Below, in pieces: positions 22,465 through 39,480 of a stretch of 64,000 nt of DNA. The stretch is taken from positions 1 to 64,000 of the IMG/VR virus record IMGVR_UViG_3300035698_020241; one strand, written 5' to 3'. Numbering within the stretch: position 1 is the stretch's first letter; every line of letters starts with the position of its first letter. The notes under the pieces are model-generated. The model had not been told where the DNA came from. It was given only the letters and a program-made list of their open reading frames with translations, and made no database searches. This DNA is from a virus. A program made the translations under genes and the position numbers.

Positions 22465-22670
22465 TACCTGATAATATAGACAAATTAAAAGACCTACCAA
22501 ACCTGGTAGTAAATATAAAGCCGGGCAAAGCATGTTTTTTTTTGCGCATATGTCCATTAAGTAAAGGATGTATTGGAGCTATAAAAAATAGTAAACTGAG
22601 AAATAAGAAATGGCAATGTGATATAAAAGCATTGAAGGAGATGTACAAAATTGAGAGTGATTCGTTCTGA
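22461..22670 (+). CDS. Small Cys-containing hypothetical protein
   Basis: ATGA-coupled ORF. Confidence 0.45.
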   Translation: MIPDNIDKLKDLPNLVVNIKPGKACFFLRICPLSKGCIGAIKNSKLRNKKWQCDIKALKEMYKIESDSF

Positions 22671-23322
22671 TAAGAACCCGAAAGTATTAGTAGTAACACC
22701 TTTATTAAAAGGTCATAAAATTTCAAAAGATACAAAGAAAACAATTAAAAGAAATACAACTCCCATTGTATGGATAGCCAGTGAAGGAAATAATAATATA
22801 CCTATAAACATACAAAATGGTATCAATTTTTGGAAAAAAGAAGGTAACGAATTACCACCTTATCTTTTACCATTGGATAATGATATAATTTTAGGTCGTC
22901 ATATAATAGATAGACTTGTAAAGAAATTGGATAGGACTGGTGATGAAGTTGGATATGCATATGCATCATTTGAATATAAGGGTCATATAAATAAAAGATT
23001 CCCAGCAGTACCTTTTGAAGCACAAAATTTAGTTAATGCTAATTATATTAGTAGTAATTCTTTGATTAAGATAGGTCATTTAATTGCGGTAGGCGGTATG
23101 GTTACCGATGAGAAATACAAGCGACTTCTTGACTATTGCATGTGGTTAAGATTTCTATATTTTGGCGTGGTTGGTGTACCTTGTCCAGAGGCTTCATTTG
23201 TAGCCGTTTCATCTAAAGATGATATATCAGCAGGCACATCAGAAGATTACCAGTTGAAATATCAAAGAGTTAAAAAGGATTTTATTGAACCAATTATAGA
23301 GAAATACAGCGCCAATTCTTAG
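22651..23322 (+). CDS. GT-A (GT2-like) glycosyltransferase
   Basis: VLVVTPL, YLLPLDNDIIL (DxD), NYISSNSLIK, LLDYCMWLRF. Confidence 0.72.
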   Translation: MRVIRSDKNPKVLVVTPLLKGHKISKDTKKTIKRNTTPIVWIASEGNNNIPINIQNGINFWKKEGNELPPYLLPLDNDIILGRHIIDRLVKKLDRTGDEVGYAYASFEYKGHINKRFPAVPFEAQNLVNANYISSNSLIKIGHLIAVGGMVTDEKYKRLLDYCMWLRFLYFGVVGVPCPEASFVAVSSKDDISAGTSEDYQLKYQRVKKDFIEPIIEKYSANS

Positions 23323-24302: not shown

Positions 24303-25121
24303 TTAAGGTTTAAATAATTCACAGTAGGATTTAACACTCATACTGGTTTCAAAATTCAACATTTCCTTAGCATCTTTAATATTTGCTAAATTCCACGCTA
24401 CACCAATTCTATCACTTTTTAGATTAGATGTAAACGAACTTTTAAAGTAAGAGGCCAAAGTAGCCACAGAGACAGGAATTCCTGAACCTATATCAATAGG
24501 AGAAAATATGGTGCTTTTATTACAAAGTGCTTTGTATATAGCCCTACATACATCCACTACATTTATAAAATCTCTTACCTGAGAACCATCTCCATTTACT
24601 ATCATTGGTTCACCATTCTTTACAGCTTTGGCAAATTCTGAAACTACTGAATCTTTTGTCTCTATATAATCATTACCACCGTATACATTACAGAGTCTCA
24701 AAACTTTTATATTGGCATCTTTTCTGTTGAGTCTTTTCGCCTCAACTTCTGCCATGTACTTTGTCATAGCATAAAAATTTGCGTCGGGTTGTTTTGCTGC
24801 CTGTGATGAAGTAAATACTGTGGGTATACGATACTTGTGAGCCAAATTGAATAAATGATAACTAGCCGATATATTACTTATTACAGCTTGTTTCATATCA
24901 TCCATACAATCCTTGATACTTGATATAGCGGCTAAATGTACTATACCGTCATATCTTTTGAATTTTCTATTATCTTTAATACATTCAACATTATTACCAT
25001 CAAGTTTATCAGCAATATCCACTTTAACTTTATAGTTTTTTAAAAAGTTTTTTAAATTTTTTCCAATATATCCACGACCACCAGTAATAAGAACTCTTTT
25101 CATATTAATTTGTACCTCCAT
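24303..25121 (-). CDS. NAD-dependent epimerase/dehydratase (extended SDR)
   Basis: VLITGGRGYIG, IVHLAA, FTSS, YAMTK (YxxxK), LRLCNVYG, NGDGSQVRDFINV. Confidence 0.92.
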   Translation of the reverse strand: MEVQINMKRVLITGGRGYIGKNLKNFLKNYKVKVDIADKLDGNNVECIKDNRKFKRYDGIVHLAAISSIKDCMDDMKQAVISNISASYHLFNLAHKYRIPTVFTSSQAAKQPDANFYAMTKYMAEVEAKRLNRKDANIKVLRLCNVYGGNDYIETKDSVVSEFAKAVKNGEPMIVNGDGSQVRDFINVVDVCRAIYKALCNKSTIFSPIDIGSGIPVSVATLASYFKSSFTSNLKSDRIGVAWNLANIKDAKEMLNFETSMSVKSYCELFKP

Positions 25122-25288: not shown

Positions 25289-25460
25289 TATGTCCTGTTT
25301 TCTTCGACGGCATCGCTAAAACATTTACAGTATGACTGAACACATCATCAAGATACACATCAATATGCACGTTATACTTTTCACCCTCAACTCTACGATA
25401 TTTTAAATCAATTTTTCCATGTTTTATAAACCATAAACACAACTTTTTGAAAAATTTCAT
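25263..25460 (-). CDS. Hypothetical protein
   Basis: Coupled ORF. Confidence 0.45.
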   Translation of the reverse strand: MKFFKKLCLWFIKHGKIDLKYRRVEGEKYNVHIDVYLDDVFSHTVNVLAMPSKKTGHIEKDIKEI

Positions 25461-26212
25461 TATTCTACACCTTTCTCTAATATTTTATTAATTGCATCTT
25501 GAATTGCATCTACTGTAAATGCAAAACTTATACCCTTACTCTCAGGTATAACAGCCCAAGTAATACCTATAATTTCATATCTGGCATTTCTGTTATTATA
25601 TATGAGTACTGGTGCTCCACTATCACCAGGATTTGTTGGTATTGTAGTAACAAAACTAAGTGGCATATAACCACTTTGACTATTATAATTACCTTTTACT
25701 AAATCTGTTGCTGAGATAATACCTCGTTTAACATTAGGACCTTCACCTAAAGACCAACCTCTTGTGATAACTTCTCTACCTACTATAGTTTCAGATACAT
25801 CAGCAAAATATAATCCTTCAAATGGTAAGTGTGTTTTAAAAAGGCTAATATCGTTATCTCTTCCTAATAATATTATCTGGTGCTCACCTATATAATGTTT
25901 TTCATTAAGCATTTTTACCTTCATTTCTATAAGAACATTTTTTGATGTTTCAACAAATACCGGATCTTCATCTTCTTTTGTCGCATGTGTTAAGGCTATT
26001 ATATATCCATTTTCTAAACTTATAGCAAGACCATGTTTATTACAAATCTTAACCTCTTCACCTATTTGCATTTCTGACACTGTTTCTATCAGAGTTATAT
26101 TTTCAATTATACAGTCCCATTTACTTGATTTCAGTACATTCCCACTACCATAAATACCACTGGCACATGAAATAAAAAATAAAACAAATAACAATAATAC
26201 ACAATTTTTCAT
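25460..26212 (-). CDS. Trypsin-like (S1) serine protease with putative lipoprotein signal
   Basis: N-terminal MKN...LLLFVLFFISC. Catalytic His (ALTHA), Asp (DISL) and Ser (NPGDSGAP). Confidence 0.78.
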   Translation of the reverse strand: MKNCVLLLFVLFFISCASGIYGSGNVLKSSKWDCIIENITLIETVSEMQIGEEVKICNKHGLAISLENGYIIALTHATKEDEDPVFVETSKNVLIEMKVKMLNEKHYIGEHQIILLGRDNDISLFKTHLPFEGLYFADVSETIVGREVITRGWSLGEGPNVKRGIISATDLVKGNYNSQSGYMPLSFVTTIPTNPGDSGAPVLIYNNRNARYEIIGITWAVIPESKGISFAFTVDAIQDAINKILEKGVE

Positions 26213-26224
26213 AATATAAATCTC

Positions 26225-26896
26225 CTATAATCCTTTAAACCACTCTTTTTTAACCATTTTACATCTTCTCATTTCTCTTATAACTTCACCATAATTTGAT
26301 ACAATAACTTTAGTACTTGGGTATCCATGTTTACTCAATGGCACATCTATTATGGGGTTTTTATTTATTCTCAATAAATTATAAATCTTACCAACATGCA
26401 TCATACCTCTATTTTTATCGGTCAATTCTTCATATGATATTTTCAAATATCTTTTACCTTTAAAATATTTTGTAAGCTCTTTATTAGCCTTGTTTATCTT
26501 GTTAATTTTACTAGGTATTTTAGTCATATCTATTTTAGGAGAAACCTTTACATCCTCTAATATTATTTGTTTTATTACATTTTCCCTGTAAAGATGTATT
26601 ACATAAATATCATTATTCTTTATATAATCTTTAACAAGTGGTGTTTTTGATAAATGTTTATGAAATAATTTGAAACCGTCATATTTGTTATTAGATAACA
26701 TTTCGTTCAAACAATTTGATACATCAATCAAATTTTCTAATTTAATAAGGTCTTTATTATTTTCATATACATTAAAATCTCCTAAATTTCTTAATGCTGA
26801 TGTTAGCCTTGATATTCCTGCCCCTGGCATTGATGTTATTACGAACTTCTTATTACGTTTATTCATACAACCTTGTTGGCTTTGCCTCCTATACAT
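26225..26896 (-). CDS. Sulfotransferase-like (Stf0-type) protein, divergent
   Basis: KFVITSMPGAGISRL (degenerate 5'-PSB loop), GFKLFHKHL, VIHLYREN, ISYEEL. Confidence 0.55.
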   Translation of the reverse strand: MYRRQSQQGCMNKRNKKFVITSMPGAGISRLTSALRNLGDFNVYENNKDLIKLENLIDVSNCLNEMLSNNKYDGFKLFHKHLSKTPLVKDYIKNNDIYVIHLYRENVIKQIILEDVKVSPKIDMTKIPSKINKINKANKELTKYFKGKRYLKISYEELTDKNRGMMHVGKIYNLLRINKNPIIDVPLSKHGYPSTKVIVSNYGEVIREMRRCKMVKKEWFKGL

Positions 26897-28247: not shown

Positions 28248-29201
28248 TTAACAAATCTCTTTAACATGTTCTATAAACTCCTTTGCACGTATCTCAACTG
28301 TATGTCTTTCTTTAATTAATTTTTGACCTTCTATTGATATTCGTTCTATTTTATCATTATTTTTTAAAAGACTCTCAATCTGTTTAGAGATATTATTCTC
28401 ATTAAGAACAACTATGTTCTTATTTGGCTCAAAACCTAAATCACTCAATTCATTAAACCAATTAGATAATAACAATGTCCCACATGCAGGTATTTCCATA
28501 AATTTCATTACTGGATAATTAACTGTCGCACCTGTTGCTATGGAAATTTTAGCACTACTAATTAATTTAGCATATTCTAATCCTTGTGGATATTTGTAAA
28601 TCTTCTCAAGGGTTTCTTGGGATCTATTATAGTAATGGAAATATGACTTTCTTTTTAGTTCTTGAACAATCTTCCATCTTAATGGGTAATGAGTGGAAAT
28701 TGTTGCACCAGTAAACACGACATCTTTGTTCTTTTTACTATAATTTTTAAATATGGAATCTACCGCATGTGGTAACCATATACACTTATTTGTTTCTCTT
28801 AATCCTGGATGAAACACATCTAATGAGTTATTATAACGATGTAATATTATAAAATTATGCTTCTTTGCTAACTCAACTTGTTTTTCAATAACAGGACCAT
28901 GAAGATCCTCTAATATCATAAAAACAGGTATATCAATATTAGACCAGTCCTCATTCATATAGGCAAATAAGGCATCACATACAATTATATCATATTGGTT
29001 TATATTTAATAAAAAATCTAAGACCATAGGTTCTACTAATTTATTAGAAGTTGTTAATTTACTATATTGACCTGCTGTCATTGGCAATTTCTTAAAATGA
29101 GTAAACACCTTTGTTTCTTTGACCACGGCATCCCTTAGAGTATCAAAATGCCGTGCAACTCTTGCTGATCTATCAATTGCTAACCATAATATTTTAGACA
29201 T
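28248..29201 (-). CDS. GT-B glycosyltransferase (CgeB/Glyco_trans_1_2-like)
   Basis: WLPHA, DVVFTG...YPLRWKI, KFMEIPACGTLLLS, HTVEIRAKEF. Confidence 0.8.
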   Translation of the reverse strand: MSKILWLAIDRSARVARHFDTLRDAVVKETKVFTHFKKLPMTAGQYSKLTTSNKLVEPMVLDFLLNINQYDIIVCDALFAYMNEDWSNIDIPVFMILEDLHGPVIEKQVELAKKHNFIILHRYNNSLDVFHPGLRETNKCIWLPHAVDSIFKNYSKKNKDVVFTGATISTHYPLRWKIVQELKRKSYFHYYNRSQETLEKIYKYPQGLEYAKLISSAKISIATGATVNYPVMKFMEIPACGTLLLSNWFNELSDLGFEPNKNIVVLNENNISKQIESLLKNNDKIERISIEGQKLIKERHTVEIRAKEFIEHVKEIC

Positions 29202-29906
29202 TTAAATCATCCGATCTTTATGCATTCTGGACATATGTGTCTTAACACCTCTTGCTGATTTCAATACTTTACCACATATAAGACAAGTATTATCAACTAC
29301 TGGTTCTTCTTTGACTTTATTTACCTCTACTATATATCTATCTCCATTACCTACTGTCATACTATTTTTATATTTCACTTTATATTTATTGAAAAAAGAT
29401 TCTATATACTTTGGAGAAATTCTTGATTTCAAAACGCCTTTATGATTTTTTTCTTCTACATATAATATGTTATTATTCATTTGATGTTTTGTAGGTGGAG
29501 ATATCATAAAAAACATTCTTTCATTAGATAATAAATCCATTTTATTTAAAAATGTTTCTATGTTTTTTTCATTTGCTATATGATGTAGTATATTTAAACA
29601 TAACACAAAATCAAATTTCTTGTCAGTCTTATAATTATAAAAATTTTTTTGTAAAAAATCAACATCTTTAAATTTTAATCTATTTTTTATATCATTTGCA
29701 ATTCTCAAAGGTGTTGGACTCAAATCAATACCTAAACAATATTTTGCGCCTTCATATAATGATTGTAATGAAAAAAATCCAGTATAACATCCAATATCTA
29801 ATATAGTCTTTCCTTTTACTTTATTAGAAAGCATCCATTTGTAATCTTTCATTCTATCTGTTCCATCTATTTTTACATCATTTATATGTATTTTTTGATA
29901 ATTCAT
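29202..29906 (-). CDS. Class I SAM-dependent methyltransferase with C-terminal C2H2 zinc finger
   Basis: TILDIGCYTGFF, LGID, FDFVLCLNILHH. Tail is CLIC-x12-H-x4-H. Confidence 0.82.
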   Translation of the reverse strand: MNYQKIHINDVKIDGTDRMKDYKWMLSNKVKGKTILDIGCYTGFFSLQSLYEGAKYCLGIDLSPTPLRIANDIKNRLKFKDVDFLQKNFYNYKTDKKFDFVLCLNILHHIANEKNIETFLNKMDLLSNERMFFMISPPTKHQMNNNILYVEEKNHKGVLKSRISPKYIESFFNKYKVKYKNSMTVGNGDRYIVEVNKVKEEPVVDNTCLICGKVLKSARGVKTHMSRMHKDRMI

Positions 29907-29950
29907 ACTACTTTTCTATCTCCTTTTGTCTCTATTTTTTTATAGTTCAT
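29903..29950 (-). CDS. 15-aa micro-ORF from a 44-nt duplication of the gene junction
   Basis: MNYKKIETKGDRKVV*. ATGA overlaps at both ends. AAGGAGATAGAAAAGTA(A/G)TATGAA occurs twice, 44 nt apart. Confidence 0.5.
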   Translation of the reverse strand: MNYKKIETKGDRKVV

Positions 29951-30588
29951 ATTACTTTTCTATCTCCTTCTATCTCTATATCAAGAACAATAAAATTGTC
30001 ATTATATAATCCTAATTGTCTTATAGAAAAAGTGTCAGGTTTTAAATGTATTCCATCACTCTCAAAAACTCTCCTTATTTCTTGTTTATTTTTAGCTGAA
30101 AGTATTTCAGGTTTTTTATATAATCTTTGTATACACGCAGGATAATAAATATCAACATCACTTCCATGTGTATTAGTTTTCCATCCACCTTTTACATATT
30201 TTCCAGTATGTTTTATAACAAGCCAATCATATACTTCAGGTAAATATTTTCTACAATTATTTGTTTTATTAAAAAATTTTTTCCATTTTTCATTTCTATA
30301 TTTTTTTTCCATTTCAGCTACATCATAACAAGAACATCTTCTATTATTATATATTTTTATTCCCATATCTTTACTTAATGGAATCCACCAGATACAAGAC
30401 CCATAGTTACCTTTTAATTTTAAATTATTAGATAAAGTTAATTTTCCTTTAGGAAAAAATTGTTTTATATCTTCATGATCACCTTTTAATTCTAAATGTG
30501 GATTATATAAAATTAAATCTCCTTTAGCAAAAAATTGTTTTATATCTCCATTTATCTTTATAAGTTTTTGAGGGTCACTTTTCTGCAT
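29947..30588 (-). CDS. Hypothetical protein, possibly atypical kinase-like fold
   Basis: GIKIY, YLPEVY and a QLGLYNDNFIVLD tail loosely follow a kinase layout. DIKQFF.KG.L repeated at the N-terminus. Confidence 0.35.
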   Translation of the reverse strand: MQKSDPQKLIKINGDIKQFFAKGDLILYNPHLELKGDHEDIKQFFPKGKLTLSNNLKLKGNYGSCIWWIPLSKDMGIKIYNNRRCSCYDVAEMEKKYRNEKWKKFFNKTNNCRKYLPEVYDWLVIKHTGKYVKGGWKTNTHGSDVDIYYPACIQRLYKKPEILSAKNKQEIRRVFESDGIHLKPDTFSIRQLGLYNDNFIVLDIEIEGDRKVI

Positions 30589-31386
30589 TTATTTTTCCAC
30601 TCTAAGAAGTGTTTTAATGTCTTCATTTCTCTCTAAAATAGTCAATCCATTATTATTTGTAAATATTTCCTTTATAACCCACGAATAATTATCAAGTAAA
30701 AATTCATTTATTGCTTTCGTTAAACCAAAATCTATATCACCAAATCCAACTCTATATCCAACATCATAATCACATGTATCGAAAACCTGTCGTCTAACAA
30801 CTATAGTTGCCGCTCCAAGTGAAATTGATTCATTATATACTTTTTTAGGCCAACGATAAATAATTTGATTTTTTTTATTAATACTCCAAACATTTGAATT
30901 TGGTAAAGTTTTTATGCAAACAGCTCCTAATTCTGAACGGTCTTTCAGTAATGATATCATTAACTCTATCGCATATTTAGGCAATCGCATATCATCGTCA
31001 GTGAAGTGTATAAAAGGAGTATTCCATTTTTCCAATGCTCTATGTAATGTTTTATGCCGTGGTGGTATACTTCCTTCATTTTTATCAGTAAATACAACAT
31101 CGCTATCATAAAAATATTTCATTTTCATTTTCAGTTCATCTTGACGTTTTTTTCTAGTATTTTCCTGTGAAGTAATACACATATTTGTTGGTGTTGTTTG
31201 TTGTTTATTTATATGTTCTAAACTTTCCATAAAAATACCCCATCTAAGCCAATTTACCATAACTGTTGAATATAGTGGCTCTTTAGATTTAACAACATCA
31301 TATACCGTATCTTTGTCAAATTTATCACATTTTGATATTAATGTATTCAAGTGTGTTTCATTTACTATCATATTATATATCCCCAT
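30589..31386 (-). CDS. Chimeric truncated GT-A glycosyltransferase (recent copy of the third domain of 31368..34406 with a foreign tail)
   Basis: Near-identical protein over about 210 aa (FIHFTDDD). Diverges after GDIDFGL into TKAINEFL...FTNNNGLTILER. Confidence 0.75.
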   Translation of the reverse strand: MGIYNMIVNETHLNTLISKCDKFDKDTVYDVVKSKEPLYSTVMVNWLRWGIFMESLEHINKQQTTPTNMCITSQENTRKKRQDELKMKMKYFYDSDVVFTDKNEGSIPPRHKTLHRALEKWNTPFIHFTDDDMRLPKYAIELMISLLKDRSELGAVCIKTLPNSNVWSINKKNQIIYRWPKKVYNESISLGAATIVVRRQVFDTCDYDVGYRVGFGDIDFGLTKAINEFLLDNYSWVIKEIFTNNNGLTILERNEDIKTLLRVEK

Positions 31387-32168
31387 TTATCTTTAAATCT
31401 TTTAATACTTTCATTAACAATTTTTTTATTATGCCGTTCTTTGTTATATATCTTATTATTACTACCACTATTTTTATTTGTAGCATGAAACCCCGGAATG
31501 TCAAGCATAATCATTTTCCATCCAGCTTTATTCATTTGTAAACCAAAATCTATATCACCACATCCAATTTTATATCCCGCATCATAATCACATGTATCAA
31601 AAACTTGTCTTCTAACAACTAAAGTTGCTGATCCAAGTGAAATTGATTCATTATATACATTTTTAGGTTTATAATAATAAAGTTGATTTTTTTCATTAAT
31701 ACCCCAAACATTTGAATATGGTAAGGTTCGTATGCAAACAGCTCCTAACTCTAAATGGTCTTTCAATAATGATATCATTAACTCTATCGCATATTTAGGT
31801 AATCGCATATCATCGTCAGTGAAATGTATAAAAGGAGTATTCCATTTTTCTAATGCTCTATGTAATGTTTTATTTCGTGGTGGACCACTTCCTTCATTTT
31901 TATCAGTGAATACAACATCACTATCATAAAAATATCGCATCTTTGATTCTAATTGATTTTGATGTTTTTTACTAGTATTTTCCTGTGAAGTAATACACAT
32001 ATTTATCGGCGTTGTTTGTTGTTTGTTTATATGTTCTAATGTTTCCATAAAAATAGGCCATCTAAGCCAGTTTAACATAACTGTTGAATATAATGGTTTT
32101 TTAGATTTAATAATCTCATACACCGTATCTTTGTCAAATTTATCGCATTTTGATATTAAGGTATTCAA
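30721..32168. repeat. Direct repeat of about 630 bp (30721-31350 and 31539-32168)
   Basis: Two highly similar copies offset by 818 nt, readable by eye. Confidence 0.92.
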
Positions 32169-34406
32169 TTTTCTTTCATATTTCACATTGGATTTCTTAA
32201 ATCCTCCGTTCTTTTTATTTGTATTACCGTATATATTAATACCCCATTTATTAAAAAAATTATCAGCACTTTTTTGTGCATATTGGTTATTATATCTTAC
32301 TTTTCTATATTCTGGTGGATCTTGCGATACATCATTAACTGCTTTTAATTCATTTAGTGCTAATATTGCCCACAACCATCCGTCTTGTTTAATTTGCATA
32401 GACAGATCAGTATCTCCCCAACCCACATAATAATTTTCCCAATCATAGTCACATTTTTCAAATACTTCTGATCGCATCATTGTTGTTGCACTACCAGATG
32501 CGTCCGCATATTCAAAAGGAGGTTTAGGTTGGCTACCTCGTAACATATTTCCTGACACATTATATGATGTATATCCTGGAGAACACCAAGAAGCAACAGC
32601 ACCTAAATTCTTCTTAGATATTAACAATGACGCAAGTGCCTCTACACCACCTGGTTGATGTGTTGTATCATCATCACCAAATAATATAAATGGTGTATTA
32701 AATTCCAAAGCTTTATGTAATGTCTCCCATCTAGGTTTACCTGAACCGTGATTATGTTCTGTAAAAGATACATGTCCATTATAAAATTTATCTACAATAT
32801 TTGAAATTTCTTTTCTACCCTTTTCATCCAATCTTCTCGCACCCTGAACTCTCAATGCTATGTTAATAGGAATTCCTATGGTATCAAGAAAATGGTTTAA
32901 TGTTTTTTTTAATTTATCATAGCGTATATATGAAAGCATAACTATAGTTATCAAAGGTTCTTTCGTGTAATAAACTTCTTCTAATGCCTTTCTATCAAAT
33001 CCATCCCACATATTACATAATCTATCTATTTCTGGTTTTTTCGGACGGACATGAAACGGCGTGATCTTCATGTAAGGATCACATACATCAGTCTTGTAAT
33101 CATTAGACCGGTCACATATTCCCCAATTATTACCTATTTCTTTTATATGCTGTTTCCATTCAGGTTTATTCCATTTCAAAATTTGGCCACTTCTAACTCT
33201 TAAATCATTCGCGTCTTTTGTTCTATGAGAATGGAATAAATGATGTATTTTTGTCTGAAACCTTTTAGGAGGATATCCCATAGTATAGAATTTTGAAAGA
33301 GTTACATTATCTTCAAAACCCCACCCTTCTACCTCAAACATACCACGCATTTTATAAAACACATCTCTTTTTATAAATGTGGCGCCGCCAGCGGCACCAA
33401 ATATATTAGGTACTCGTTTTTTTACAACACGATGTTCTTCAATTTTTCCTGATTTCATATATTCTTTTGTTGCGTCCTCATTTAAAAATGGTAAAACACC
33501 CCAAGCAGCAGCAATAGGATAATCACAAGTAAACGCTTCATTAATCCAATCATTATTAACTATCAAATCAGAATCCATCAATATTAATGACTGGCCTGTT
33601 GATAATTCCTTTACACCAACATTAAATGCCCAGCCTCTATTAAATAATCCATCATACTTAGTGAATTTATAATTAAAATTCTTTACAAAATCAGAATCTA
33701 ATCCACGGATTGGACCAATTTCATGAATACATATTTCTAAATTCGGGTAATCTCTTTTATATGGCAATTTTTCTATGCATTTTTTAAATAATTCAAATCT
33801 TTCAGGATTATGCATATAAGGTATAATTATCGACACACTTCTATTTTCTGATAATATAACTTTATCAGTATCAGTTATTTTTATTAAATCTTTACGCATA
33901 TCACTATCAATATCGTTTCGTCTTCTACTAATATTAACAAATGTTTTTTGATATATATTACTCATACCTTTCACAGTCGCTTTTTGTTTCATATTATTCA
34001 CAGATACGATTTTATACATATTATCATCAATAACTTTTTGTCTTCTATTCTTACTAACATATGCGTTTTTATATATAGCCTCTGTAGCGGCTTTTTGTTT
34101 GATATTATTCTCAATAGCTTTTTGTTTCATATTATTCACAGGAGATTTATATATCGTATTATTCTCAATAGCTTGTTGTCTTCTAGTAGTATGAACAACG
34201 GCCTTTTGTTTCAAAGCCTCCACCGCTGCTTTTTGTTTAATACTATTCTCAATAGCTTGTTGTCTTCTAGTAGTATGAACAACGGCCTTTTGTTTCAAAG
34301 CCTCCACCGCTGCTTTTTGTTTAATACTATTCTCAATAGCTTTTTGTTTCATATTATCCATATGATTATTTTTTTTCATATCATTATCTGTGACTCTAAT
34401 ATCCAT
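31368..34406 (-). CDS. Multi-domain glycosyltransferase (three GT-A domains) with repetitive N-terminus
   Basis: Domain 1: SIIIPY, FNRGWAFNVG, DSD, GWGFED (GT7/GT2-like). Domain 2: FILFGDDD, GWGDTD. Domain 3: FIHFTDDD, GCGDID. Confidence 0.9.
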   Translation of the reverse strand: MDIRVTDNDMKKNNHMDNMKQKAIENSIKQKAAVEALKQKAVVHTTRRQQAIENSIKQKAAVEALKQKAVVHTTRRQQAIENNTIYKSPVNNMKQKAIENNIKQKAATEAIYKNAYVSKNRRQKVIDDNMYKIVSVNNMKQKATVKGMSNIYQKTFVNISRRRNDIDSDMRKDLIKITDTDKVILSENRSVSIIIPYMHNPERFELFKKCIEKLPYKRDYPNLEICIHEIGPIRGLDSDFVKNFNYKFTKYDGLFNRGWAFNVGVKELSTGQSLILMDSDLIVNNDWINEAFTCDYPIAAAWGVLPFLNEDATKEYMKSGKIEEHRVVKKRVPNIFGAAGGATFIKRDVFYKMRGMFEVEGWGFEDNVTLSKFYTMGYPPKRFQTKIHHLFHSHRTKDANDLRVRSGQILKWNKPEWKQHIKEIGNNWGICDRSNDYKTDVCDPYMKITPFHVRPKKPEIDRLCNMWDGFDRKALEEVYYTKEPLITIVMLSYIRYDKLKKTLNHFLDTIGIPINIALRVQGARRLDEKGRKEISNIVDKFYNGHVSFTEHNHGSGKPRWETLHKALEFNTPFILFGDDDTTHQPGGVEALASLLISKKNLGAVASWCSPGYTSYNVSGNMLRGSQPKPPFEYADASGSATTMMRSEVFEKCDYDWENYYVGWGDTDLSMQIKQDGWLWAILALNELKAVNDVSQDPPEYRKVRYNNQYAQKSADNFFNKWGINIYGNTNKKNGGFKKSNVKYERKLNTLISKCDKFDKDTVYEIIKSKKPLYSTVMLNWLRWPIFMETLEHINKQQTTPINMCITSQENTSKKHQNQLESKMRYFYDSDVVFTDKNEGSGPPRNKTLHRALEKWNTPFIHFTDDDMRLPKYAIELMISLLKDHLELGAVCIRTLPYSNVWGINEKNQLYYYKPKNVYNESISLGSATLVVRRQVFDTCDYDAGYKIGCGDIDFGLQMNKAGWKMIMLDIPGFHATNKNSGSNNKIYNKERHNKKIVNESIKRFKDKWGYII
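34161..34342 (-). repeat. Perfect 84-bp tandem repeat (two units plus partial)
   Basis: The unit encodes AIENSIKQKAAVEALKQKAVVHTTRRQQ. The same 12-mer starts at 34161, 34245 and 34329. Confidence 0.92.
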
Positions 34407-34407
34407 A

Positions 34408-35580
34408 CTACCCCCATAATACCTTAGGAATTACAAGTTTTTTTAATATTTCTTTTTGTTCTGTGCTCCATTTAGGTATAAGATTAAGAACATATTCAAC
34501 TTCTTGTTCAACGGTTCTTGTAGGTTTATAACCTAAATCAGTAAGATTTTTAGTTATATACTTATAGTAATGGTCTCCGGTATGCTCATTACGAGGTGTT
34601 GTTATGTTTACTCGTTCAACATTCTTTATACCACATTTATCTGCTGTTTTAATTACCATATTTGCTACATCATTCATTGAAAACCACTCTGATAACTGAT
34701 TCCATACTTGTGGTCTACATTTCTTTGCTGGATTCTTTACAGCCAACATCATAGCCTGTACTGAATCATTCAATGATAAAAATCCTCTTTTATGATCTCC
34801 ATCTCCATATATTGTTAACGGTACACCAAGTAAGGCTTGAATTATAAATCTATTTAACACTGTACCAAAACATTCATCTGAATTAAAATCTGAATAGATT
34901 TTTGATTTATCTATAACATCTGTATATAATCCAAATACTATTGATTGTTGAGGATCTGTACATCTTAAACCCCATGATCTTGAACAAAAATCTATAAGAT
35001 ATGTTGATCCTGTTTTACTTGAATGATATATGGATCCAGGTTTTCGTGGAAATATCTGTTCTGTGGATTGTCTACCCTTATGTTCAAATTTAAAATATCC
35101 TTCTTCAATATCTATATTTGATTGATGATCATATTCACCAGTAGTTCCTATGGTTATATAATGAATTTCAGGATCATTATTCTTTATAGCCCATAATAAG
35201 TTATTGGTTCCCATAGTATTATTTTGTAGGGTAATTTCGGCGTGTCTCCGATCTATCATAGAATATGGACCAGAGTTGATGTGTGCTAAGTTAATAATCG
35301 TAGATGGTTTCCATTTTTGGATTATTATGTTCAAATGAGAAAAATCCTCTGCAATATCTATTCTTTCAAAGATATATTTCCCCATTTTTTTATACTTCTT
35401 TGTTTTTTCTAATTGTGTTAAAGTTGGACCTGCAGGAAATGAATTCATCTCCTTTATCAAGTCAATCTTCATAAGATTATCAAGTCCGATAACCGTATAA
35501 CCCTCACTCAAAAGGGTTTGTGTAAGGGCATTTCCTATGTAACCATTACAACCACACAATACAATTGTTTTTTCATTCAT
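34408..35580 (-). CDS. sqdB: UDP-sulfoquinovose synthase (SqdB/SQD1/Agl3 family)
   Basis: GCNGYIG, SGPYSMIDRRHA..TLQNN..GT.NLLWAI, IGTTGEY, IDIEEGY, PRKPGSIYHSSK, WGLRCTD, FGTVLNRFIIQA..G.PLTIYGDG..RGFL, NPA...VWNQLSE.FS. Confidence 0.88.
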   Translation of the reverse strand: MNEKTIVLCGCNGYIGNALTQTLLSEGYTVIGLDNLMKIDLIKEMNSFPAGPTLTQLEKTKKYKKMGKYIFERIDIAEDFSHLNIIIQKWKPSTIINLAHINSGPYSMIDRRHAEITLQNNTMGTNNLLWAIKNNDPEIHYITIGTTGEYDHQSNIDIEEGYFKFEHKGRQSTEQIFPRKPGSIYHSSKTGSTYLIDFCSRSWGLRCTDPQQSIVFGLYTDVIDKSKIYSDFNSDECFGTVLNRFIIQALLGVPLTIYGDGDHKRGFLSLNDSVQAMMLAVKNPAKKCRPQVWNQLSEWFSMNDVANMVIKTADKCGIKNVERVNITTPRNEHTGDHYYKYITKNLTDLGYKPTRTVEQEVEYVLNLIPKWSTEQKEILKKLVIPKVLWG

Positions 35581-35596
35581 ACAAATTAATCTCCTA

Positions 35597-36718
35597 TTAA
35601 TATACTTTAATAAATTCTGACGAATTGCCTCCTGTTGATTTAGCTCCTTGGTACCATGTGTTTACTATATCGTCAGCTACACTTTTATGTGTATTCAAAA
35701 AGGCACCAATTTCAAGGGAATGTAATATTGATTGCCAGTAACCTACAGCATCTATCACTATACCACTTTTATCTATTACATTTTTACCTTTAATTCTCAT
35801 TTTCATATTCTTTTCAATATCAGATGAAGAAAACTTATATCCGGTTTGTTTCCATAAGTTTAAAACTAATTTTGTAAGTTTTTGAGGTCCTTCATCAACA
35901 TACTGTTTTATACGGGACTTTGGCATTTGAGGTATCTTATACTTATCAACCATTTCTTTTTTGGCAGATGATGGAACCTTACCATGTCTAGCTGCTCCGC
36001 CTTTCATGATTACCTCACCACCGATATCTGCTTGTTTACTGATTCTAAAACTTCTAAAATTTATACCTATACTTTCTTTAGTAGTTATAACCAACATACC
36101 TGTAGGATATATTGCTTTAGGTTTTCTGATAATTTTGTATCCCACTATTTCAAAGTCACCACCTGTTCCTTCATGGGTAACCTTGGCTGATTTACCAACC
36201 TTTTTTAATGATATTGGTAAAACAATTCCTCTTTTCAAACTCTTTGATATATACATATTGAGTTCCGCTAAATGTCCAAACTGTGGTAACACCTCATCAA
36301 CAGATGCCCATATATCAGCAGGGTTCCATTTATCGTTTGCTAATTTTATACCATCAACATTTTTAAGTTTATTAAATTCTGAGTAAACAAGATTCATAAA
36401 TCCTGTACCTCTATAAAAGGTATAATCACCTCTTTTTAAAAACTTTGAAGATTTTAAAGCATTTGAAGCTTTTACTACACTTTCGGCCCAATCAGGTTTT
36501 TCTTGTGCAAATTCAAATAAATCACTTTGACCTGCATCAACTTTACAATACTTATCATATGATTGACCAAAAAGTTTACCATTTAATAAGTCTTCAACTG
36601 TAATATTTTTCTTCTTTTGTGCTATACCTAACGCAACACAATGAAGTCCTTCTTGTAATCTTGTAGTATTAGACGCTTCACCAGCAACCTCATTTATATA
36701 ATCATTAAATCTACTCAT
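35597..36718 (-). CDS. Hypothetical T4-like phage protein, possible PD-(D/E)XK nuclease fold
   Basis: DKWNPADIW...PISLKK pattern. N-terminus MSRFNDYINE. Confidence 0.45.
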   Translation of the reverse strand: MSRFNDYINEVAGEASNTTRLQEGLHCVALGIAQKKKNITVEDLLNGKLFGQSYDKYCKVDAGQSDLFEFAQEKPDWAESVVKASNALKSSKFLKRGDYTFYRGTGFMNLVYSEFNKLKNVDGIKLANDKWNPADIWASVDEVLPQFGHLAELNMYISKSLKRGIVLPISLKKVGKSAKVTHEGTGGDFEIVGYKIIRKPKAIYPTGMLVITTKESIGINFRSFRISKQADIGGEVIMKGGAARHGKVPSSAKKEMVDKYKIPQMPKSRIKQYVDEGPQKLTKLVLNLWKQTGYKFSSSDIEKNMKMRIKGKNVIDKSGIVIDAVGYWQSILHSLEIGAFLNTHKSVADDIVNTWYQGAKSTGGNSSEFIKVY

Positions 36719-36733
36719 TGTTATTCTCCGTTA

Positions 36734-36991
36734 TTAACCTTCTGGCACAACAACATTTTTTCCTTCAGCTTTTTGTTTTTTATAATCATTCCAATACATT
36801 GACGAATTGCCTTCCCAATCACAGCAATCTGTTTTATTGTTATATTTTAACTCAAATCTAAATGTAGAAGGTATTTTAGTCATTATATTTCTACACTTTT
36901 GACACTTCCTTGGCCAATCACACTCTTTTACTGGTATTAATTTTTCTACTATTTCTTCACATTCATAACACACGAATTCGTATAGTGGCAT
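36734..36991 (-). CDS. FmdB-family zinc-ribbon protein
   Basis: MPLYEFVCYEC...CQKC...MTKIPS. Confidence 0.8.
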   Translation of the reverse strand: MPLYEFVCYECEEIVEKLIPVKECDWPRKCQKCRNIMTKIPSTFRFELKYNNKTDCCDWEGNSSMYWNDYKKQKAEGKNVVVPEG

Positions 36992-37035: not shown

Positions 37036-37902
37036 TTAAACTTCTTTTAAAAAATGTGAAAGCATTCTTAACACACCTTTTGGTTTTATATCTTTATATG
37101 TAGGAAAAGCGAAAGACTTTTCATTACCTAAATAATGTATTCCACCTTCTCTATATTGTCCTACTGATTCTCCCCATGAAAAAACAGGAGATTTCTGCAT
37201 ATTTGCTATTACTGTCCAATGTCCTAATGGACATACAACAGCTTTAGCCATTGTAATATATTTCAAAATTTTCAAATATCCATTTTCAAAATAATTTATA
37301 TCTGAAAGTATTTTATTTTCATCAGGAAAATTAGTTTTCATATCACCAATTATCATGAATCCCTTATCTTTTAAGAATTCTAATATATGATCTGTTAAAA
37401 CTAAATTTGTAGTCGTATCCGGTATAAAAATCAACTTATCTTTATATTCATCTTCCACATCACCCAAAGGTATCTTTTCAAATATCTTCTTATGTATAGG
37501 ATATGAAGGTGTTGATTTGATATATTTTAAAAAGTGTATATCAATATCCTTTTTACTACATTTTTCCTTCTCTACTATTTCTTCTTTAAACATCTTAATG
37601 ATTGTATTGAAATCTTTCTGATTTAAGGAACCATAAGTATATCCATGTTGGCCATTTTCATCCCTTGATATATGTTCACCTACAGGTATAAATTTATGTG
37701 GGAAGTTATAAAGAAAGGAACGATTCCTATGCGTACAAACATACACATTATCTATTCCAACAACTTCATGTATCCATTTAATATGAGGCTGAAAATTTAA
37801 TATCTCATTCTTAAAATCACCAATATATGGTCCTAATGCTAACACAGTTTTTTTCATACAGTTTCGTTTCACCTTTATTTTATTATCACATTTCCATTCC
37901 AT
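37036..37902 (-). CDS. Putative GT9-like glycosyltransferase
   Basis: GPYIGDFKNEILNFQPHIK; AKAVVCPLGHWTVIANMQKSPVFSWG. Confidence 0.5.
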   Translation of the reverse strand: MEWKCDNKIKVKRNCMKKTVLALGPYIGDFKNEILNFQPHIKWIHEVVGIDNVYVCTHRNRSFLYNFPHKFIPVGEHISRDENGQHGYTYGSLNQKDFNTIIKMFKEEIVEKEKCSKKDIDIHFLKYIKSTPSYPIHKKIFEKIPLGDVEDEYKDKLIFIPDTTTNLVLTDHILEFLKDKGFMIIGDMKTNFPDENKILSDINYFENGYLKILKYITMAKAVVCPLGHWTVIANMQKSPVFSWGESVGQYREGGIHYLGNEKSFAFPTYKDIKPKGVLRMLSHFLKEV

Positions 37903-38347: not shown

Positions 38348-39403
38348 CTATTTTATCCACTTATTTGTGTGTAATTTTACATACGCTTCAGACCAATCAT
38401 AACTGTTATTAACTATAAAAGAAAAAACATCACTAAATCCGTACTTTACACTATACATATTTATATCTTTACACTCTTTATATTTACGAGGGAATAAAAA
38501 GTATTTAACTTTTTTTGCATATTTACTTGGTGATATATCCAATCGTCTACCCTTTCTTTTTTTACCAATCATAAATTTTGTCATTAAATCAATTCCGGCT
38601 TTATCATTATCCGGCGCCACAATTATATATTCATCTGTTAATTTAAATATCTCTTTCATCAAATCGTCTGATATTTCTGCACCCAGACAAGTTGTTCCCT
38701 GCGAACCAATAGTCATGGCATCTAATAACCCCTCTACAATTATGATAGGTTTTTTTCTATCAAATTTATGTTTGTTATGTATGATACTACCTTTTGCTAT
38801 CGTTGGATTTTTATACTTTGGATCCATATCGGACCCTGGAGGACGACGAGCCTGAAAATAAATAATATCTTTATTTTCATCGTATATAGGAATAATTATT
38901 CTACCTTTATAATCATCTTTAAAAGCATATAATAATTCATATTCCTTAGATAGTTTCCTACTTTCACGAAAATCACATAAGAGTTTCAAATATTTCTTAG
39001 CCATAACTCCTTCTTGAGGAAGCATATCCGTTATACAACTATCTAATATATAATTATGATTCTCGGTAGATATCTCTTTTACAATCTTTTCTTTCTTTTT
39101 ATTGGAAAGTTTTTGAATAAGATAATCTGGATTATATTTGAAAAGATCCTTTTTGGCTTGATTTATATCAACACCTTTTATCATTGTATATAATTCAAGG
39201 AATGAACCACTTTTCATACAGTTAAAGCAGTGATACATAGGATTACCATTATTGAAATCAAGATGGAATCTTTTTTTGGTTTGACTTTTTTGTGAATCAC
39301 CACATAATAAACATCGAGCATGAAAATGTGTACCATTTTTTGATACAGTAACTAAAGCAAAAAATTCATACATAAAATCATCCACAACTTGTAAGTCTAA
39401 CAT
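38348..39403 (-). CDS. gp61: DNA primase, T4 gp61-like
   Basis: Zinc domain ARCLLCGDS...YHCFNC; RIIIPIY..YFQAR..PKY; TOPRIM IIVEGLLDA and APDNDKAG. Confidence 0.92.
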   Translation of the reverse strand: MLDLQVVDDFMYEFFALVTVSKNGTHFHARCLLCGDSQKSQTKKRFHLDFNNGNPMYHCFNCMKSGSFLELYTMIKGVDINQAKKDLFKYNPDYLIQKLSNKKKEKIVKEISTENHNYILDSCITDMLPQEGVMAKKYLKLLCDFRESRKLSKEYELLYAFKDDYKGRIIIPIYDENKDIIYFQARRPPGSDMDPKYKNPTIAKGSIIHNKHKFDRKKPIIIVEGLLDAMTIGSQGTTCLGAEISDDLMKEIFKLTDEYIIVAPDNDKAGIDLMTKFMIGKKRKGRRLDISPSKYAKKVKYFLFPRKYKECKDINMYSVKYGFSDVFSFIVNNSYDWSEAYVKLHTNKWIK

Positions 39404-39417
39404 TTAATCTCCTTAAT

Positions 39418-39449
39418 AAAAAAACCCACACGGTAAAAACCATGTGGGT
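39418..39449 (-). terminator. Intrinsic terminator
   Basis: 11-bp stem ACCCACAUGGU/ACCGUGUGGGU, UUUU loop, followed by a U-tract. Confidence 0.8.
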
Positions 39450-39451
39450 CC

Positions 39452-39480
39452 ATTATACACTAACTAATTGTAATTGTAAA
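39452..39480 (-). promoter_or_regulatory. Sigma70-type promoter for primase
   Basis: TTTACA-N17-TATAAT with TG on the minus strand. Confidence 0.85.

What the first reader, a model, noticed from the sequence alone, without database searches (positions are those of the whole stretch)
34408..35580. Phage-encoded UDP-sulfoquinovose synthase
Seen: a full-length SqdB-family sequence retaining the residues equivalent to SQD1 Thr145, Tyr182, His183 and Lys186 (IGTTGEY, YHSSK), plus family-specific segments (PYSMIDR..A, FGTVLNRF..QA). Known: these enzymes make UDP-sulfoquinovose from UDP-glucose and sulfite, for sulfolipids (SqdB/SQD1) or for protein N-glycans (Sulfolobus Agl3). Inference: sitting directly upstream of a three-domain glycosyltransferase, it suggests the phage builds a sulfonated, anionic glycan on the virion, host surface or DNA. 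I am not aware of a characterised phage example.
Basis: partly seen in the sequence, partly recalled or inferred. Interest (0 to 1): 0.8.

Follow-up and report, generated by a model that had tools for sequence, protein, structure and literature searches.

The report
Phage-specific sulfoquinovose-synthase-like enzyme clade
An uncultured large T4-like phage carries a full-length relative of the enzyme that makes the sulfonated sugar donor UDP-sulfoquinovose; it belongs to a clade found only in phages, with an altered active-site fingerprint, and sits beside phage glycosyltransferases, so these phages probably build an unusual acidic sugar chain whose chemistry and target are still unproven.

Summary
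It is a full-length SqdB/SQD1/Agl3-family extended SDR: E 1.7e-68 to Arabidopsis SQD1, 35% identity to an algal SQD1. GxxGxxG, the catalytic Thr, YHxxK and the family-specific segments are all kept.

The contig is a fragment of a T4-like jumbo phage (IMG/VR record, about 53% complete).

What is new here:
- The protein belongs to a monophyletic clade seen only on phage contigs. That covers 28 IMG/VR loci, 121 close homologs and three phage backbones; the few 'MAG' copies are mis-binned phage.
- The clade departs from the published UDP-SQ-synthase fingerprint. It has [ST]-T/A/V-G instead of [ST]-M-G, plus fixed N97, H100, D151-H152 and H263.
- sqdB occupies a fixed slot after the primase, and a variable island of 0-12 soluble GT/MTase/SDR genes follows it. 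A GT-A (F6) and a probable GT-B (F1) are conserved with it.
- Rooting is unstable, so proven enzymes do not bracket the clade.

A UDP-SQ (or near-analogue) donor for a phage-built glycan is the best reading (about 0.5). The acceptor is unknown. This scan flagged the same theme before on other phage DNA, and one virome paper mentions a putative viral UDP-SQ synthase.

The parts
34408..35580 (-). SqdB/SQD1-family extended SDR (P0001, 390 aa), phage-clade type; predicted UDP-sulfoquinovose (or analogue) synthase
31368..34406 (-). 1012-aa soluble glycosyltransferase with three GT-A modules (about 188-430, 460-725, 740-1010), each with a DxD; the start codon abuts the sqdB stop
   Evidence: Pfam GT2 5.7e-14; module mapping by BLAST to single-domain relatives; no TM segment
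30589..31386 (-). 265-aa GT-A, 83% identical to module 3 of the 1012-aa protein (recent tandem duplication)
29947..30588 (-). 213-aa island ORF with no detectable family
29202..29906 (-). SAM-dependent methyltransferase (234 aa)
   Evidence: Pfam Methyltransf_31 9e-14
28248..29201 (-). 317-aa glycosyltransferase (Glyco_trans_1_2 C-terminal domain)
   Evidence: Pfam 2e-13; homologous to parts of multi-GT proteins in L019/L013
26863..27828 (-). 321-aa conserved island protein (family F32), weak GT-B-like signal
   Evidence: Pfam Glyco_trans_1_2 E 0.0066; 75% identical to the L002 ORF, present in 4 loci
26225..26896 (-). 223-aa ORF, 45% identical to an L002 ORF that has a weak precomputed Sulfotransfer_3 hit; no direct Pfam hit here
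25460..26212 (-). Trypsin_2-like serine peptidase with an N-terminal hydrophobic segment; the only non-soluble-looking island protein
24303..25121 (-). 272-aa NDP-sugar epimerase/reductase-type SDR, the last enzyme of the island
   Evidence: Pfam Epimerase 1.2e-30; NCBIfam weak hits
22651..23322 (+). F6: 223-aa GT-A glycosyltransferase with DxD, conserved with sqdB; it bounds the island and is directly adjacent to sqdB in island-less relatives
   Evidence: synteny; AF2 pLDDT 90; Foldseek SpsA/TarP/WrtF E about 1e-8; also in G003/G004
35597..36718 (-). F22: 373-aa protein of unknown function immediately upstream of sqdB (16-nt gap), in 6 loci
   Evidence: phrog_1462 4e-28, unknown function; synteny
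36734..36991 (-). F2: 85-aa Zn-ribbon backbone protein
   Evidence: synteny in 19-20 loci; Zn_ribbon_8 on the L002 ortholog
37036..37902 (-). F1: 288-aa backbone protein, probable GT-B (GT9-like) glycosyltransferase
   Evidence: 22 loci; AF2 pLDDT 69; Foldseek WaaC/WaaF E 2e-6, TM 0.45: moderate support only
38348..39403 (-). DnaG-type primase, first gene of the apparent transcription unit that runs into sqdB
   Evidence: TIGR01391 4.8e-17, Toprim
39452..39480 (-). Best sigma-70-like promoter match of the region (TTTACA-17-TATAAT, 11/12), upstream of the primase; a consensus match only

Best explanation
P0001 is an NAD-dependent extended SDR of the SqdB/SQD1/Agl3 family, of a type specific to large phages. 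By homology it should oxidise UDP-glucose at C4, eliminate water to the 4-keto-5,6-ene, add sulfite at C6 and re-reduce C4, giving UDP-6-sulfoquinovose. The sulfite would come from the host, since no phage PAPS reductase was found. The gene appears to be co-transcribed with early/middle replication genes. I infer that the product is the donor for phage-encoded, soluble, cytoplasmic glycosyltransferases: the conserved GT-A F6, the probable GT-B F1, and in this phage a triple GT-A protein plus further GTs, a methyltransferase and a second SDR. These would assemble an anionic, partly methylated glycan on a cytoplasmic acceptor, most plausibly phage proteins before assembly. Shown here: family membership, conserved catalytic residues, phage origin, clade structure and synteny. 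Inferred: the actual product (about 0.6 for UDP-SQ itself), the coupling to the GTs, and the acceptor.
For: Family: full-length match to SQD1 (E 1.7e-68) and to NF041015 (323.5 bits against 66.9 for the next family). The sub-cutoff score is uninformative, because genetically proven S. meliloti SqdB scores 332 and algal SQD1 scores 467. Residues: GxxGxxG, T146, Y185, H186, K189, S183, E149/Y150, Q212, R244 and R330 are invariant across the phage clade. The His of YHxxK is Gly in the outgroup SDRs. Purifying selection: the clade diverges to 45% identity internally yet keeps these sites, and all 121 close homologs keep YHxxK. Phage origin: IMG/VR record; gp46/47, UvsX, gp32-like, RNR, ligase and homing endonucleases; PolB split by an HNH endonuclease, plus helicases; synteny with contigs that carry gp23 and gp5. 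Coupling: the sqdB stop abuts the triple-GT start; sqdB and F6 flank every island and are adjacent when no island is present; F6 folds as a GT-A. Sulfur theme: sister phage lineages put Sulfotransfer_1 genes and an APS kinase in the same island. All island enzymes are soluble, with no flippase, polymerase or OTase.
Against: The clade breaks the published UDP-SQ-synthase fingerprint [ST]-M-G (PMC8987622). It has T/A/V at that position, and the equivalent M145A kills Agl3, as do H95A and R101A (PMC4388408); here these positions are N97 and N/P102. Further clade-fixed changes lie in or next to the motifs that line the active site in homologs (H100, D151 plus an inserted H152, H263 instead of the conserved Gln, F216). 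Proven enzymes do not robustly bracket the clade: FastTree nests it, but IQ-TREE with LG+C20 places it as sister to all the others. No activity data exist for any clade member. No phage-encoded sulfite source was found. Ten relatives have sqdB with no adjacent GT other than F6. The acceptor is entirely unobserved.
Confidence: 0.5

Rival explanations
1. Same fold and the same first half-reaction, but different chemistry. The phage clade has a remodelled pocket and makes something other than UDP-SQ: for example it releases the UDP-glucose-5,6-ene, adds a different nucleophile at C6, or accepts a different NDP-hexose.
For: Clade-fixed substitutions fall at positions that are essential in Agl3 or conserved family-wide: Met to Thr/Ala/Val, His to Asn, the D151-H152 insertion, Gln263 to His, Tyr216 to Phe (mutant data). 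The Met position corresponds to the catalytic acid of 4,6-dehydratases. The basal placement in the better-model tree allows an old functional split.
Against: The family-specific His186 and the E149/Y150 pair needed for the dehydratase half-reaction are invariant (PMC4388408). Arg101 is Pro in most of the family anyway. Position 147 varies T/A/V within the clade, which suggests it is not a precise catalytic group there. Sulfotransferase and APS-kinase genes co-locate in sister lineages, which fits a sulfo-sugar theme.
Confidence: 0.25
2. Auxiliary metabolic gene for host sulfolipid. The phage boosts UDP-SQ so that host (or phage) SQDG synthase replaces phospholipid with sulfolipid, sparing phosphorus for synthesis of a roughly 240-kb genome.
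For: SqdB's classical role is SQDG synthesis. Ten relatives carry sqdB without a large GT island. Early co-expression with nucleotide-metabolism genes is plausible. A virome paper interpreted a viral UDP-SQ synthase as an AMG (PMC7785012).
Against: The clade is old and phage-specific rather than recently captured from hosts. No SqdD homolog exists in the genome or the related loci (best E 2.4), and no Glycos_transf_1 (SqdX/SQD2-type) hit was found in the window. The gene is physically tied to multi-GT, methyltransferase and SDR islands that a single-step lipid pathway does not need. The host is unknown, and the contigs are not cyanophage-like.
Confidence: 0.12
3. DNA hypermodification. UDP-SQ (or its analogue) is transferred by phage GTs onto hydroxymethylated bases in phage DNA, as T4 does with glucose, giving sulfonated DNA that resists host nucleases.
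For: sqdB, F1 and F6 sit inside the replication module next to the primase and RNR and appear early-transcribed. The enzymes are soluble. A divergent thymidylate-synthase-family gene lies at 16813-17670. Module 3 of the triple GT gives a weak, sub-threshold hit to TET-associated glycosyltransferase (24.3 bits). Phage GTs are known to hypermodify DNA with diverse glycans (Pyle 2024, cited in PMC12619734).
Against: No TET/JBP and no T4 beta-GT homologs were found in five genomes; these negatives are weak because the controls did not ring. The TS-like protein keeps the uracil-specifying Asn and is closest to archaeal-type thymidylate synthase (TIGR03283), with no positive sign of a hydroxymethylase, and it is absent from two of the five related genomes. 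Methyltransferase- and peptidase-rich islands of up to 12 genes are atypical for DNA glycosylation.
Confidence: 0.08
4. The contig is cellular, or the gene is an ordinary epimerase/dehydratase mis-read as SqdB.
For: Some close homologs are deposited in MAGs labelled Parcubacteria, Patescibacteria, WOR-3 or Woesearchaeota. G000 itself carries no capsid gene on the 126 kb available.
Against: Those MAG contigs carry the same phage backbone genes. Relatives sharing the backbone encode gp23 and gp5. G000 has a T4-type replisome riddled with homing endonucleases. NF041015 outscores every other SDR family by more than 250 bits, and other SDRs form the outgroup in both trees.
Confidence: 0.02

Closest known systems
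Arabidopsis SQD1 (PDB 1qrr, 1i24) and cyanobacterial/algal SqdB: UDP-sulfoquinovose synthase for the sulfolipid SQDG
   Same: Full-length colinear homology (E 1.7e-68; 35% identity to algal SQD1). Shares GxxGxxG, the catalytic Thr, YHxxK with the family-specific His, PYSxxxR, GEY, FGTxxNRFxxQ, and the QxR-region Arg.
   Different: Has Thr/Ala/Val instead of the fingerprint Met; Asn for His96; Asn/Pro for Arg101; His for Glu99; a D-H insertion after GEY; His for the conserved Gln263. There is no SQDG synthase partner. It is encoded by phages beside multi-GT islands.
Sulfolobus acidocaldarius Agl3: UDP-SQ synthase feeding protein N-glycosylation
   Same: Same family. This is the closest functional analogy if the phage glycan decorates proteins, and the sugar would be one unit of a larger oligosaccharide (PMC4388408).
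   Different: Agl3 passes the NF041015 cutoff and P0001 does not (323.5 vs 575). Three of the residues whose Ala mutants kill Agl3 differ in the phage clade. Agl3's glycan is built on a lipid carrier and transferred by an oligosaccharyltransferase; no such machinery is encoded here.
Sinorhizobium/Rhodobacter SqdB in the sqdB-sqdD(-sqdC) operon
   Same: Same family and a similar NF041015 score (332 vs 323.5). A glycosyltransferase follows directly downstream.
   Different: Only 30% identical. SqdD has no homolog in the phage. Keeps the Met/His/Arg fingerprint residues.
Putative viral UDP-sulfoquinovose synthase reported as an AMG in a Mu-like virus from the Cariaco Basin (PMC7785012)
   Same: A virus-encoded, sequence-predicted UDP-SQ synthase, discussed in the context of glycosylation.
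   Different: That was a single Mu-like contig with annotation only, and its relation to the clade here is untested. Here the gene is a lineage-wide, syntenic feature of large T4-like and other big phages, with a distinct fingerprint.
Phage-encoded glycosylation systems: mycobacteriophage virion glycosylation (Freeman 2023) and T4-type or diverse DNA glycosylation (Pyle 2024)
   Same: Phage-encoded soluble GTs acting in the cytoplasm on phage components.
   Different: Those systems use host-made common nucleotide sugars. This one encodes its own specialised sugar-nucleotide synthase predicted to introduce a C-sulfonate. The target is unknown.

Membership tests
SqdB/SQD1/Agl3 UDP-sulfoquinovose synthase family | Extended-SDR architecture with an N-terminal GxxGxxG NAD site and full-length colinearity with SQD1 | tested here: met
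   G10-x-x-G13-x-x-G16; alignment 4-389 vs 2-382 of 1qrr, E 1.7e-68; Pfam Epimerase/GDP_Man_Dehyd
SqdB/SQD1/Agl3 UDP-sulfoquinovose synthase family | Catalytic Thr ... Tyr-x3-Lys triad | tested here: met
   T146, Y185 and K189; invariant (S/T at 146) in 33 clade members
SqdB/SQD1/Agl3 UDP-sulfoquinovose synthase family | Family-specific His directly after the catalytic Tyr (YHxxK; SQD1 His183) | tested here: met
   H186 is invariant in the clade and in 121/121 close homologs; Gly in the outgroup SDRs
SqdB/SQD1/Agl3 UDP-sulfoquinovose synthase family | Published reactivity fingerprint [ST]-M-G ... Y-x3-K (PMC8987622) | tested here: not met
   P0001 has T-T-G. The clade has T25/A8 at this position, and among 121 homologs T/A/V but never M. 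Elsewhere in the family Met appears in 72 of 85 sequences
SqdB/SQD1/Agl3 UDP-sulfoquinovose synthase family | Residues whose Ala mutants inactivate Agl3 (His95, Arg101, Met145, Tyr182, Lys186) | tested here: inconclusive
   Tyr and Lys are kept. His is Asn97 (invariant), Arg is Asn in P0001 and Pro in the clade (Pro is also the majority state family-wide), and Met is Thr. A natural substitution is not the same as an Ala mutant
SqdB/SQD1/Agl3 UDP-sulfoquinovose synthase family | Score above the curated equivalog cutoff of NF041015 (575 bits) | tested here: not met
   323.5 bits. But proven S. meliloti SqdB scores 332 and algal SQD1 467, and only 1 of 14 control genomes passes, so the cutoff defines Agl3-type proteins only
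SqdB/SQD1/Agl3 UDP-sulfoquinovose synthase family | Phylogenetic placement inside the span of experimentally proven enzymes | tested here: inconclusive
   Nested in the FastTree tree, but sister to all other members in the IQ-TREE LG+C20 tree. In both it is clearly separated from other SDRs
SqdB/SQD1/Agl3 UDP-sulfoquinovose synthase family | Converts UDP-glucose plus sulfite to UDP-sulfoquinovose | not testable with these tools
   Needs an enzyme assay
Sulfolipid (SQDG) pathway | A partner SQ-transferase to diacylglycerol (SqdD of GT8 type, or SqdX/SQD2 of GT4 type) | tested here: not met
   No SqdD homolog (best E 2.4); no Glycos_transf_1 hit among the window GTs. No SqdX reference sequence was available, so that comparison was made through Pfam only
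T4-type DNA glycosylation | A hydroxymethyl-pyrimidine source (dCMP/dUMP hydroxymethylase or TET/JBP) plus a DNA glucosyltransferase | tested here: inconclusive
   A divergent TS-family protein is present but closest to archaeal thymidylate synthase, with Asn kept. No TET/JBP or T4 beta-GT hits, although the controls did not ring either
T4-like (gp23-type) tailed phage | T4-type replisome and recombination genes, and virion hallmark genes | tested here: met
   gp46/47-like, UvsX, gp32-like, RNR, primase, PolB and helicases lie on G000. gp23 and gp5 were found only on syntenic relatives, because G000 is a roughly 53% fragment

The most novel reading that the evidence does not exclude
The phage-specific SqdB clade supplies a C6-sulfonated (or otherwise C6-substituted) glucose that the replication-module glycosyltransferases (F1, F6, the triple GT) attach to phage DNA, giving a sulfonated DNA hypermodification. 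A more probable reading, also unprecedented, is that phage-encoded cytoplasmic enzymes decorate the virion proteins of these jumbo phages with a sulfonated, methylated glycan (about 0.35).
Probability: 0.08. Interest if true: 0.95.

Novelty: new variant of a known kind. Interest (0 to 1): 0.62.

Why it matters
Sulfoquinovose is known from photosynthetic-membrane sulfolipid and from Sulfolobales N-glycans. No virus has been shown to make or use it. The gene here is not a sporadic capture. It marks a deep, phage-only clade with more than 100 distinct sequences and at least three large-phage backbones, held at a fixed genomic slot that seeds a hypervariable glycosyltransferase island.

If the product is UDP-SQ, these phages would build a permanently anionic C-sulfonate glycan in the cytoplasm. 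That would be a new kind of phage surface or nucleic-acid chemistry, with consequences for adsorption, immune or defence evasion, and organosulfur cycling in sediments.

If the altered fingerprint means a different product, the clade is a natural experiment on how the still-unresolved second half of the SQD1 mechanism is tuned; the acid/base residues are listed as 'unknown' in the 2022 review. Either outcome can be tested directly with a synthetic gene and LC-MS.

Tried and rejected
1. A single-sequence scan of IMG/VR found nothing because the patterns were too specific. The alignment-based scan then worked.
2. The genome-contig scan used clade-specific patterns, so it could not supply canonical cyanobacterial or Agl3 references. 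I used S. meliloti, Haladaptatus and Pseudonocardia plasmid copies and Mesostigma SQD1 as labelled anchors instead. No Agl3 or cyanobacterial sequence could be placed in the tree by name.
3. 'Phylogenetic bracketing by proven enzymes' looked true in the FastTree tree. I rejected it after the site-heterogeneous IQ-TREE run moved the root.
4. I first read the sub-cutoff NF041015 score as evidence against function. Calibration removed that reading.
5. My early figure of about 45% identity to SQD1 was wrong and is corrected to about 35%.
6. The SQD1 structure paper (PMC23906) is not held, so residue roles come from the Agl3 paper and the 2022 review.
7. The second SqdB-like paralogs (372-374 aa) in L011/L012/L028 lack the Tyr and Lys and sit on a very long branch, so they are not SqdB.
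8. Late-promoter motif TATAAATA: 15 hits against 20 expected, so not informative.
9. Searching the 1012-aa GT against PDB sequences returned no hit.
10. Sulfotransferase in G000: no Pfam hit. The only link is homology to an L002 ORF with a weak precomputed hit.
11. No model of P0001 was made; both structure-prediction jobs went to the unknown partners F6 and F1.
Full report
**1. Observation.** The ORF at 34408-35580 is open only on the minus strand, and it encodes 390 aa (P0001). The alignment to Arabidopsis SQD1 (1qrr) covers residues 4-389 at E 1.7e-68. It puts SQD1 Thr145/Tyr182/His183/Lys186 on T146/Y185/H186/K189. The best family hit is NCBIfam NF041015 (UDP-sulfoquinovose synthase), matched end to end at 323.5 bits; the next family, dTDP-glucose 4,6-dehydratase, scores 66.9. 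The 575-bit cutoff is not reached, but this carries no weight. Genetically proven S. meliloti SqdB scores 332, algal SQD1 scores 467, and only one of 14 control genomes passes the cutoff. Computed identities are 35% to Mesostigma SQD1, 34% to a Pseudonocardia homolog and 30% to S. meliloti SqdB. My first impression of about 45% was too high.

**2. The contig is a phage.** The window is the first 64 kb of a 126,240-bp IMG/VR record that CheckV rates at 53% complete. It encodes gp46/47-like SbcCD, UvsX, a gp32-like SSB, RNR, NAD ligase, DnaG-type primase, many homing endonucleases and two tRNAs. The other half carries a family-B DNA polymerase split by an HNH endonuclease, DnaB-like and other helicases, and a CCA-adding enzyme. 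No capsid gene lies on this fragment. However, contigs that share its gene order carry T4 gp23 and a gp5 baseplate hub. GenBank phages contain neither similar DNA nor a close SqdB homolog.

**3. A phage-only clade.** The big protein database holds thousands of family members. The top 120 are 53-78% identical to P0001. An alignment-based scan found 28 IMG/VR loci, on contigs of up to 234 kb. The same clade-specific patterns hit only four contigs among 185,579 species genomes, all short MAG contigs. Three of these carry the same phage backbone genes. The homolog labelled 'Patescibacteria' (P0061) sits between a GT/MTase island and a clamp-loader-PolA-dUTPase-RNR block identical in layout to viral contigs L011/L028. 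P0055, on contigs of up to 304 kb, lies in the L004/L025 jumbo-phage layout. The clade therefore occurs on at least three distinct large-phage backbones.
- In trees rooted on other SDRs the clade is monophyletic: support 100 in FastTree and SH-aLRT 84 in IQ-TREE LG+C20.
- Its position is unstable. FastTree nests it among the other SqdB proteins; the better model places it as sister to all of them, including S. meliloti SqdB and algal SQD1. I therefore do not claim that proven enzymes bracket it.
- Identity within the clade is 45-100% (median 61%). Identity to the rest of the family has a median of 34%.

**4. Active site.**
- Invariant in 33 clade members: GxxGxxG, D34, S/T146, E149, Y150, S183, Y185, H186, K189, Q212, G239-T240, R244, F245, Q248, R265, N294-Q295, R330 and E332.
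- His186 is specific to the family; the outgroup SDRs have Gly there.
- The clade also has its own fixed signature: N97 (His in SQD1/Agl3 and in 63 of 85 other members), H100 (Glu/Gln elsewhere), T/A147 (Met in 72 of 85), D151 (Gly elsewhere), an inserted H152, F216 (Tyr elsewhere) and H263 (Gln in 78 of 85).
- All 121 close homologs read G[ST]-(T/A/V)-GEY-(D/S/N)-H; none has Met.
- The 2022 review of nucleotide-sugar dehydratases gives [ST]MG...Yx3K as the fingerprint for UDP-SQ synthase and lists the acid and base as unknown (PMC8987622).
- In Agl3 the H95A, R101A and M145A mutants are inactive, and E147A and Y148A retain 12-15% of wild-type activity (PMC4388408).
- The phage clade thus keeps the redox/dehydratase core but is remodelled at positions that matter in Agl3. 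Arg101 is a weak criterion, because Pro is the majority state across the family.
- I put the probability that the product is UDP-SQ itself at about 0.6.

**5. Genomic anatomy.** Gene-family clustering over 35 loci shows this backbone: RNR (F7) - F5 - primase (F4) - F3 - F1 - (F8) - Zn-ribbon protein (F2) - (RNA ligase or F22) - sqdB - [island] - F6 - F9 - ... - gp5 hub (annotations).
- The island ranges from zero genes (L007-L010, L014-L017, L021) to about 12.
- In the window it comprises: a 1012-aa protein with three GT-A modules; a 265-aa GT-A that is 83% identical to module 3; a 213-aa orphan; a SAM methyltransferase; a 317-aa GT; a 130-aa orphan; a 321-aa conserved protein; a 223-aa ORF related to a weakly sulfotransferase-like ORF of L002; a trypsin-like peptidase; and a 272-aa NDP-sugar SDR.
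- F6 (22651-23322, plus strand here) gave a confident model (pLDDT 90) with a GT-A fold like SpsA, TarP and WrtF (E about 1e-8), and it has a DxD.
- F1 gave a weaker model (pLDDT 69) whose best matches are GT9 heptosyltransferases (E 2e-6, TM 0.45).
- Even the minimal genomes therefore keep SqdB plus one or two GTs.
- All island enzymes lack TM segments, and there is no Wzx/Wzy/OTase-type gene. This points to assembly in the cytoplasm.
- The strongest sigma-70-like site lies upstream of the primase, and the genes run with gaps of 15-44 nt into sqdB. That suggests early/middle expression, but it is inference only.

**6. What the sugar is for.**
- *Sulfolipid.* There is no SqdD homolog and no GT4 Pfam hit in the window. 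A deep phage-only clade tied to multi-GT islands is also not what a recent host-derived AMG looks like.
- *DNA.* The placement in the replication module and a divergent TS-family gene are suggestive. But that gene is closest to archaeal thymidylate synthase and keeps the uracil-specifying Asn. No TET/JBP or T4 beta-GT homologs were found, though these negatives are weak.
- *Phage proteins.* This is favoured by analogy with mycobacteriophage virion glycosylation and by the complexity of the islands (methyltransferases, several SDRs, and Sulfotransfer_1 and APS kinase in sister lineages). Nothing here shows it directly.
- *Sulfite.* It must come from the host, since PAPS reductase is absent from five related genomes.

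**7. Prior knowledge.** One virome study reports a putative UDP-SQ synthase on a Mu-like viral contig (PMC7785012). No paper in the library links sqdB with AMGs or with jumbo-phage sulfotransferases, and none reports sulfoquinovose made by a phage. This scan had already flagged and followed up related clusters on other phage contigs of 204 kb and 234 kb. My results agree with those notes and add the fixed-slot synteny, the fingerprint departure, the rooting caveat, the score calibration and the fold assignments for F6 and F1.

**8. Verdict.** This is a new variant of a known enzyme kind: a phage-specific SqdB clade with an altered active-site signature that anchors a variable glycosylation island. 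The product and the acceptor are unproven.

Noticed in passing
L031:9974-12310, L032:7973-10615, L003:3186-5606; proteins P0122, P0124, P0126-P0128, P0143 and others: SqdB-family genes carry inteins at three recurrent sites, all inside catalytic or substrate motifs: before the catalytic Thr of G-T-x-G-E-Y, inside Y-H-x|S-K, and before (C)FGTxxNRF. Some proteins carry two inteins (for example P0127 at 1164 aa). Several of these belong to the phage clade. An intein hotspot in a sugar-nucleotide enzyme is unusual.
   Followed up: partly
window 30589-31386 vs 31368-34406: The 265-aa GT-A gene is 83% identical to module 3 (residues 744-956) of the upstream 1012-aa triple GT, which indicates a recent tandem duplication. 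In relatives the same modules occur as separate genes (L027) or as 649-994-aa fusions (L005, L013, L019).
   Followed up: partly
window 34200-34218 and 34284-34302 (minus strand): An identical 19-nt hairpin plus 10-nt tail occurs twice, 84 nt apart, inside the 5' part of the triple-GT gene. This implies a 28-codon tandem repeat in its N-terminal region.
   Followed up: no
window 16813-17670 (+): A divergent thymidylate-synthase-family protein (285 aa). The catalytic Cys and the uracil-specifying Asn are kept, and the best model is the archaeal/methanogen-type TS TIGR03283 (93 bits, below cutoff). Only the C-terminal half matches bacterial ThyA. Whether it is a TS or a dUMP hydroxymethylase is unresolved.
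   Followed up: partly
L011:4175-5293, L012:4731-5855, L028:4175-5293: A second SqdB-like paralog (372-374 aa) lies in the same island in the PolA-type phage lineage. It sits on a very long branch and has lost the catalytic Tyr and Lys (W...Q), so it is probably a non-redox or pseudo-enzyme SDR.
   Followed up: partly
L033, L034, L035 (MAG contigs) and P0061: Contigs binned as Parcubacteria, WOR-3, Woesearchaeota and 'Patescibacteria group' carry the phage backbone genes around sqdB, so they are likely phage contigs mis-binned into MAGs. P0061 is listed in 102 index blocks of the collection and appears to come from a widespread phage.
   Followed up: partly
L004:12030-12404; L043/L044 about 6945-7700 and 13475-14769: A sister jumbo-phage lineage places an APS kinase and two Sulfotransfer_1 genes in the same island as sqdB, together with QueC, MazG, dCMP deaminase, Kdo8P-synthase-like and radical-SAM genes. 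This points to both O-sulfation and C-sulfonation capacity.
   Followed up: no
G000 120028-123708 (L041:16029-19709): The family-B DNA polymerase is split into 582-aa and 291-aa pieces by an HNH homing-endonuclease gene.
   Followed up: no
window 39422-39480 (minus strand): A near-consensus sigma-70 promoter (11/12) is followed immediately by a 13-bp-stem terminator-like hairpin, just upstream of the primase start. It could be a regulated early promoter/attenuator arrangement.
   Followed up: no
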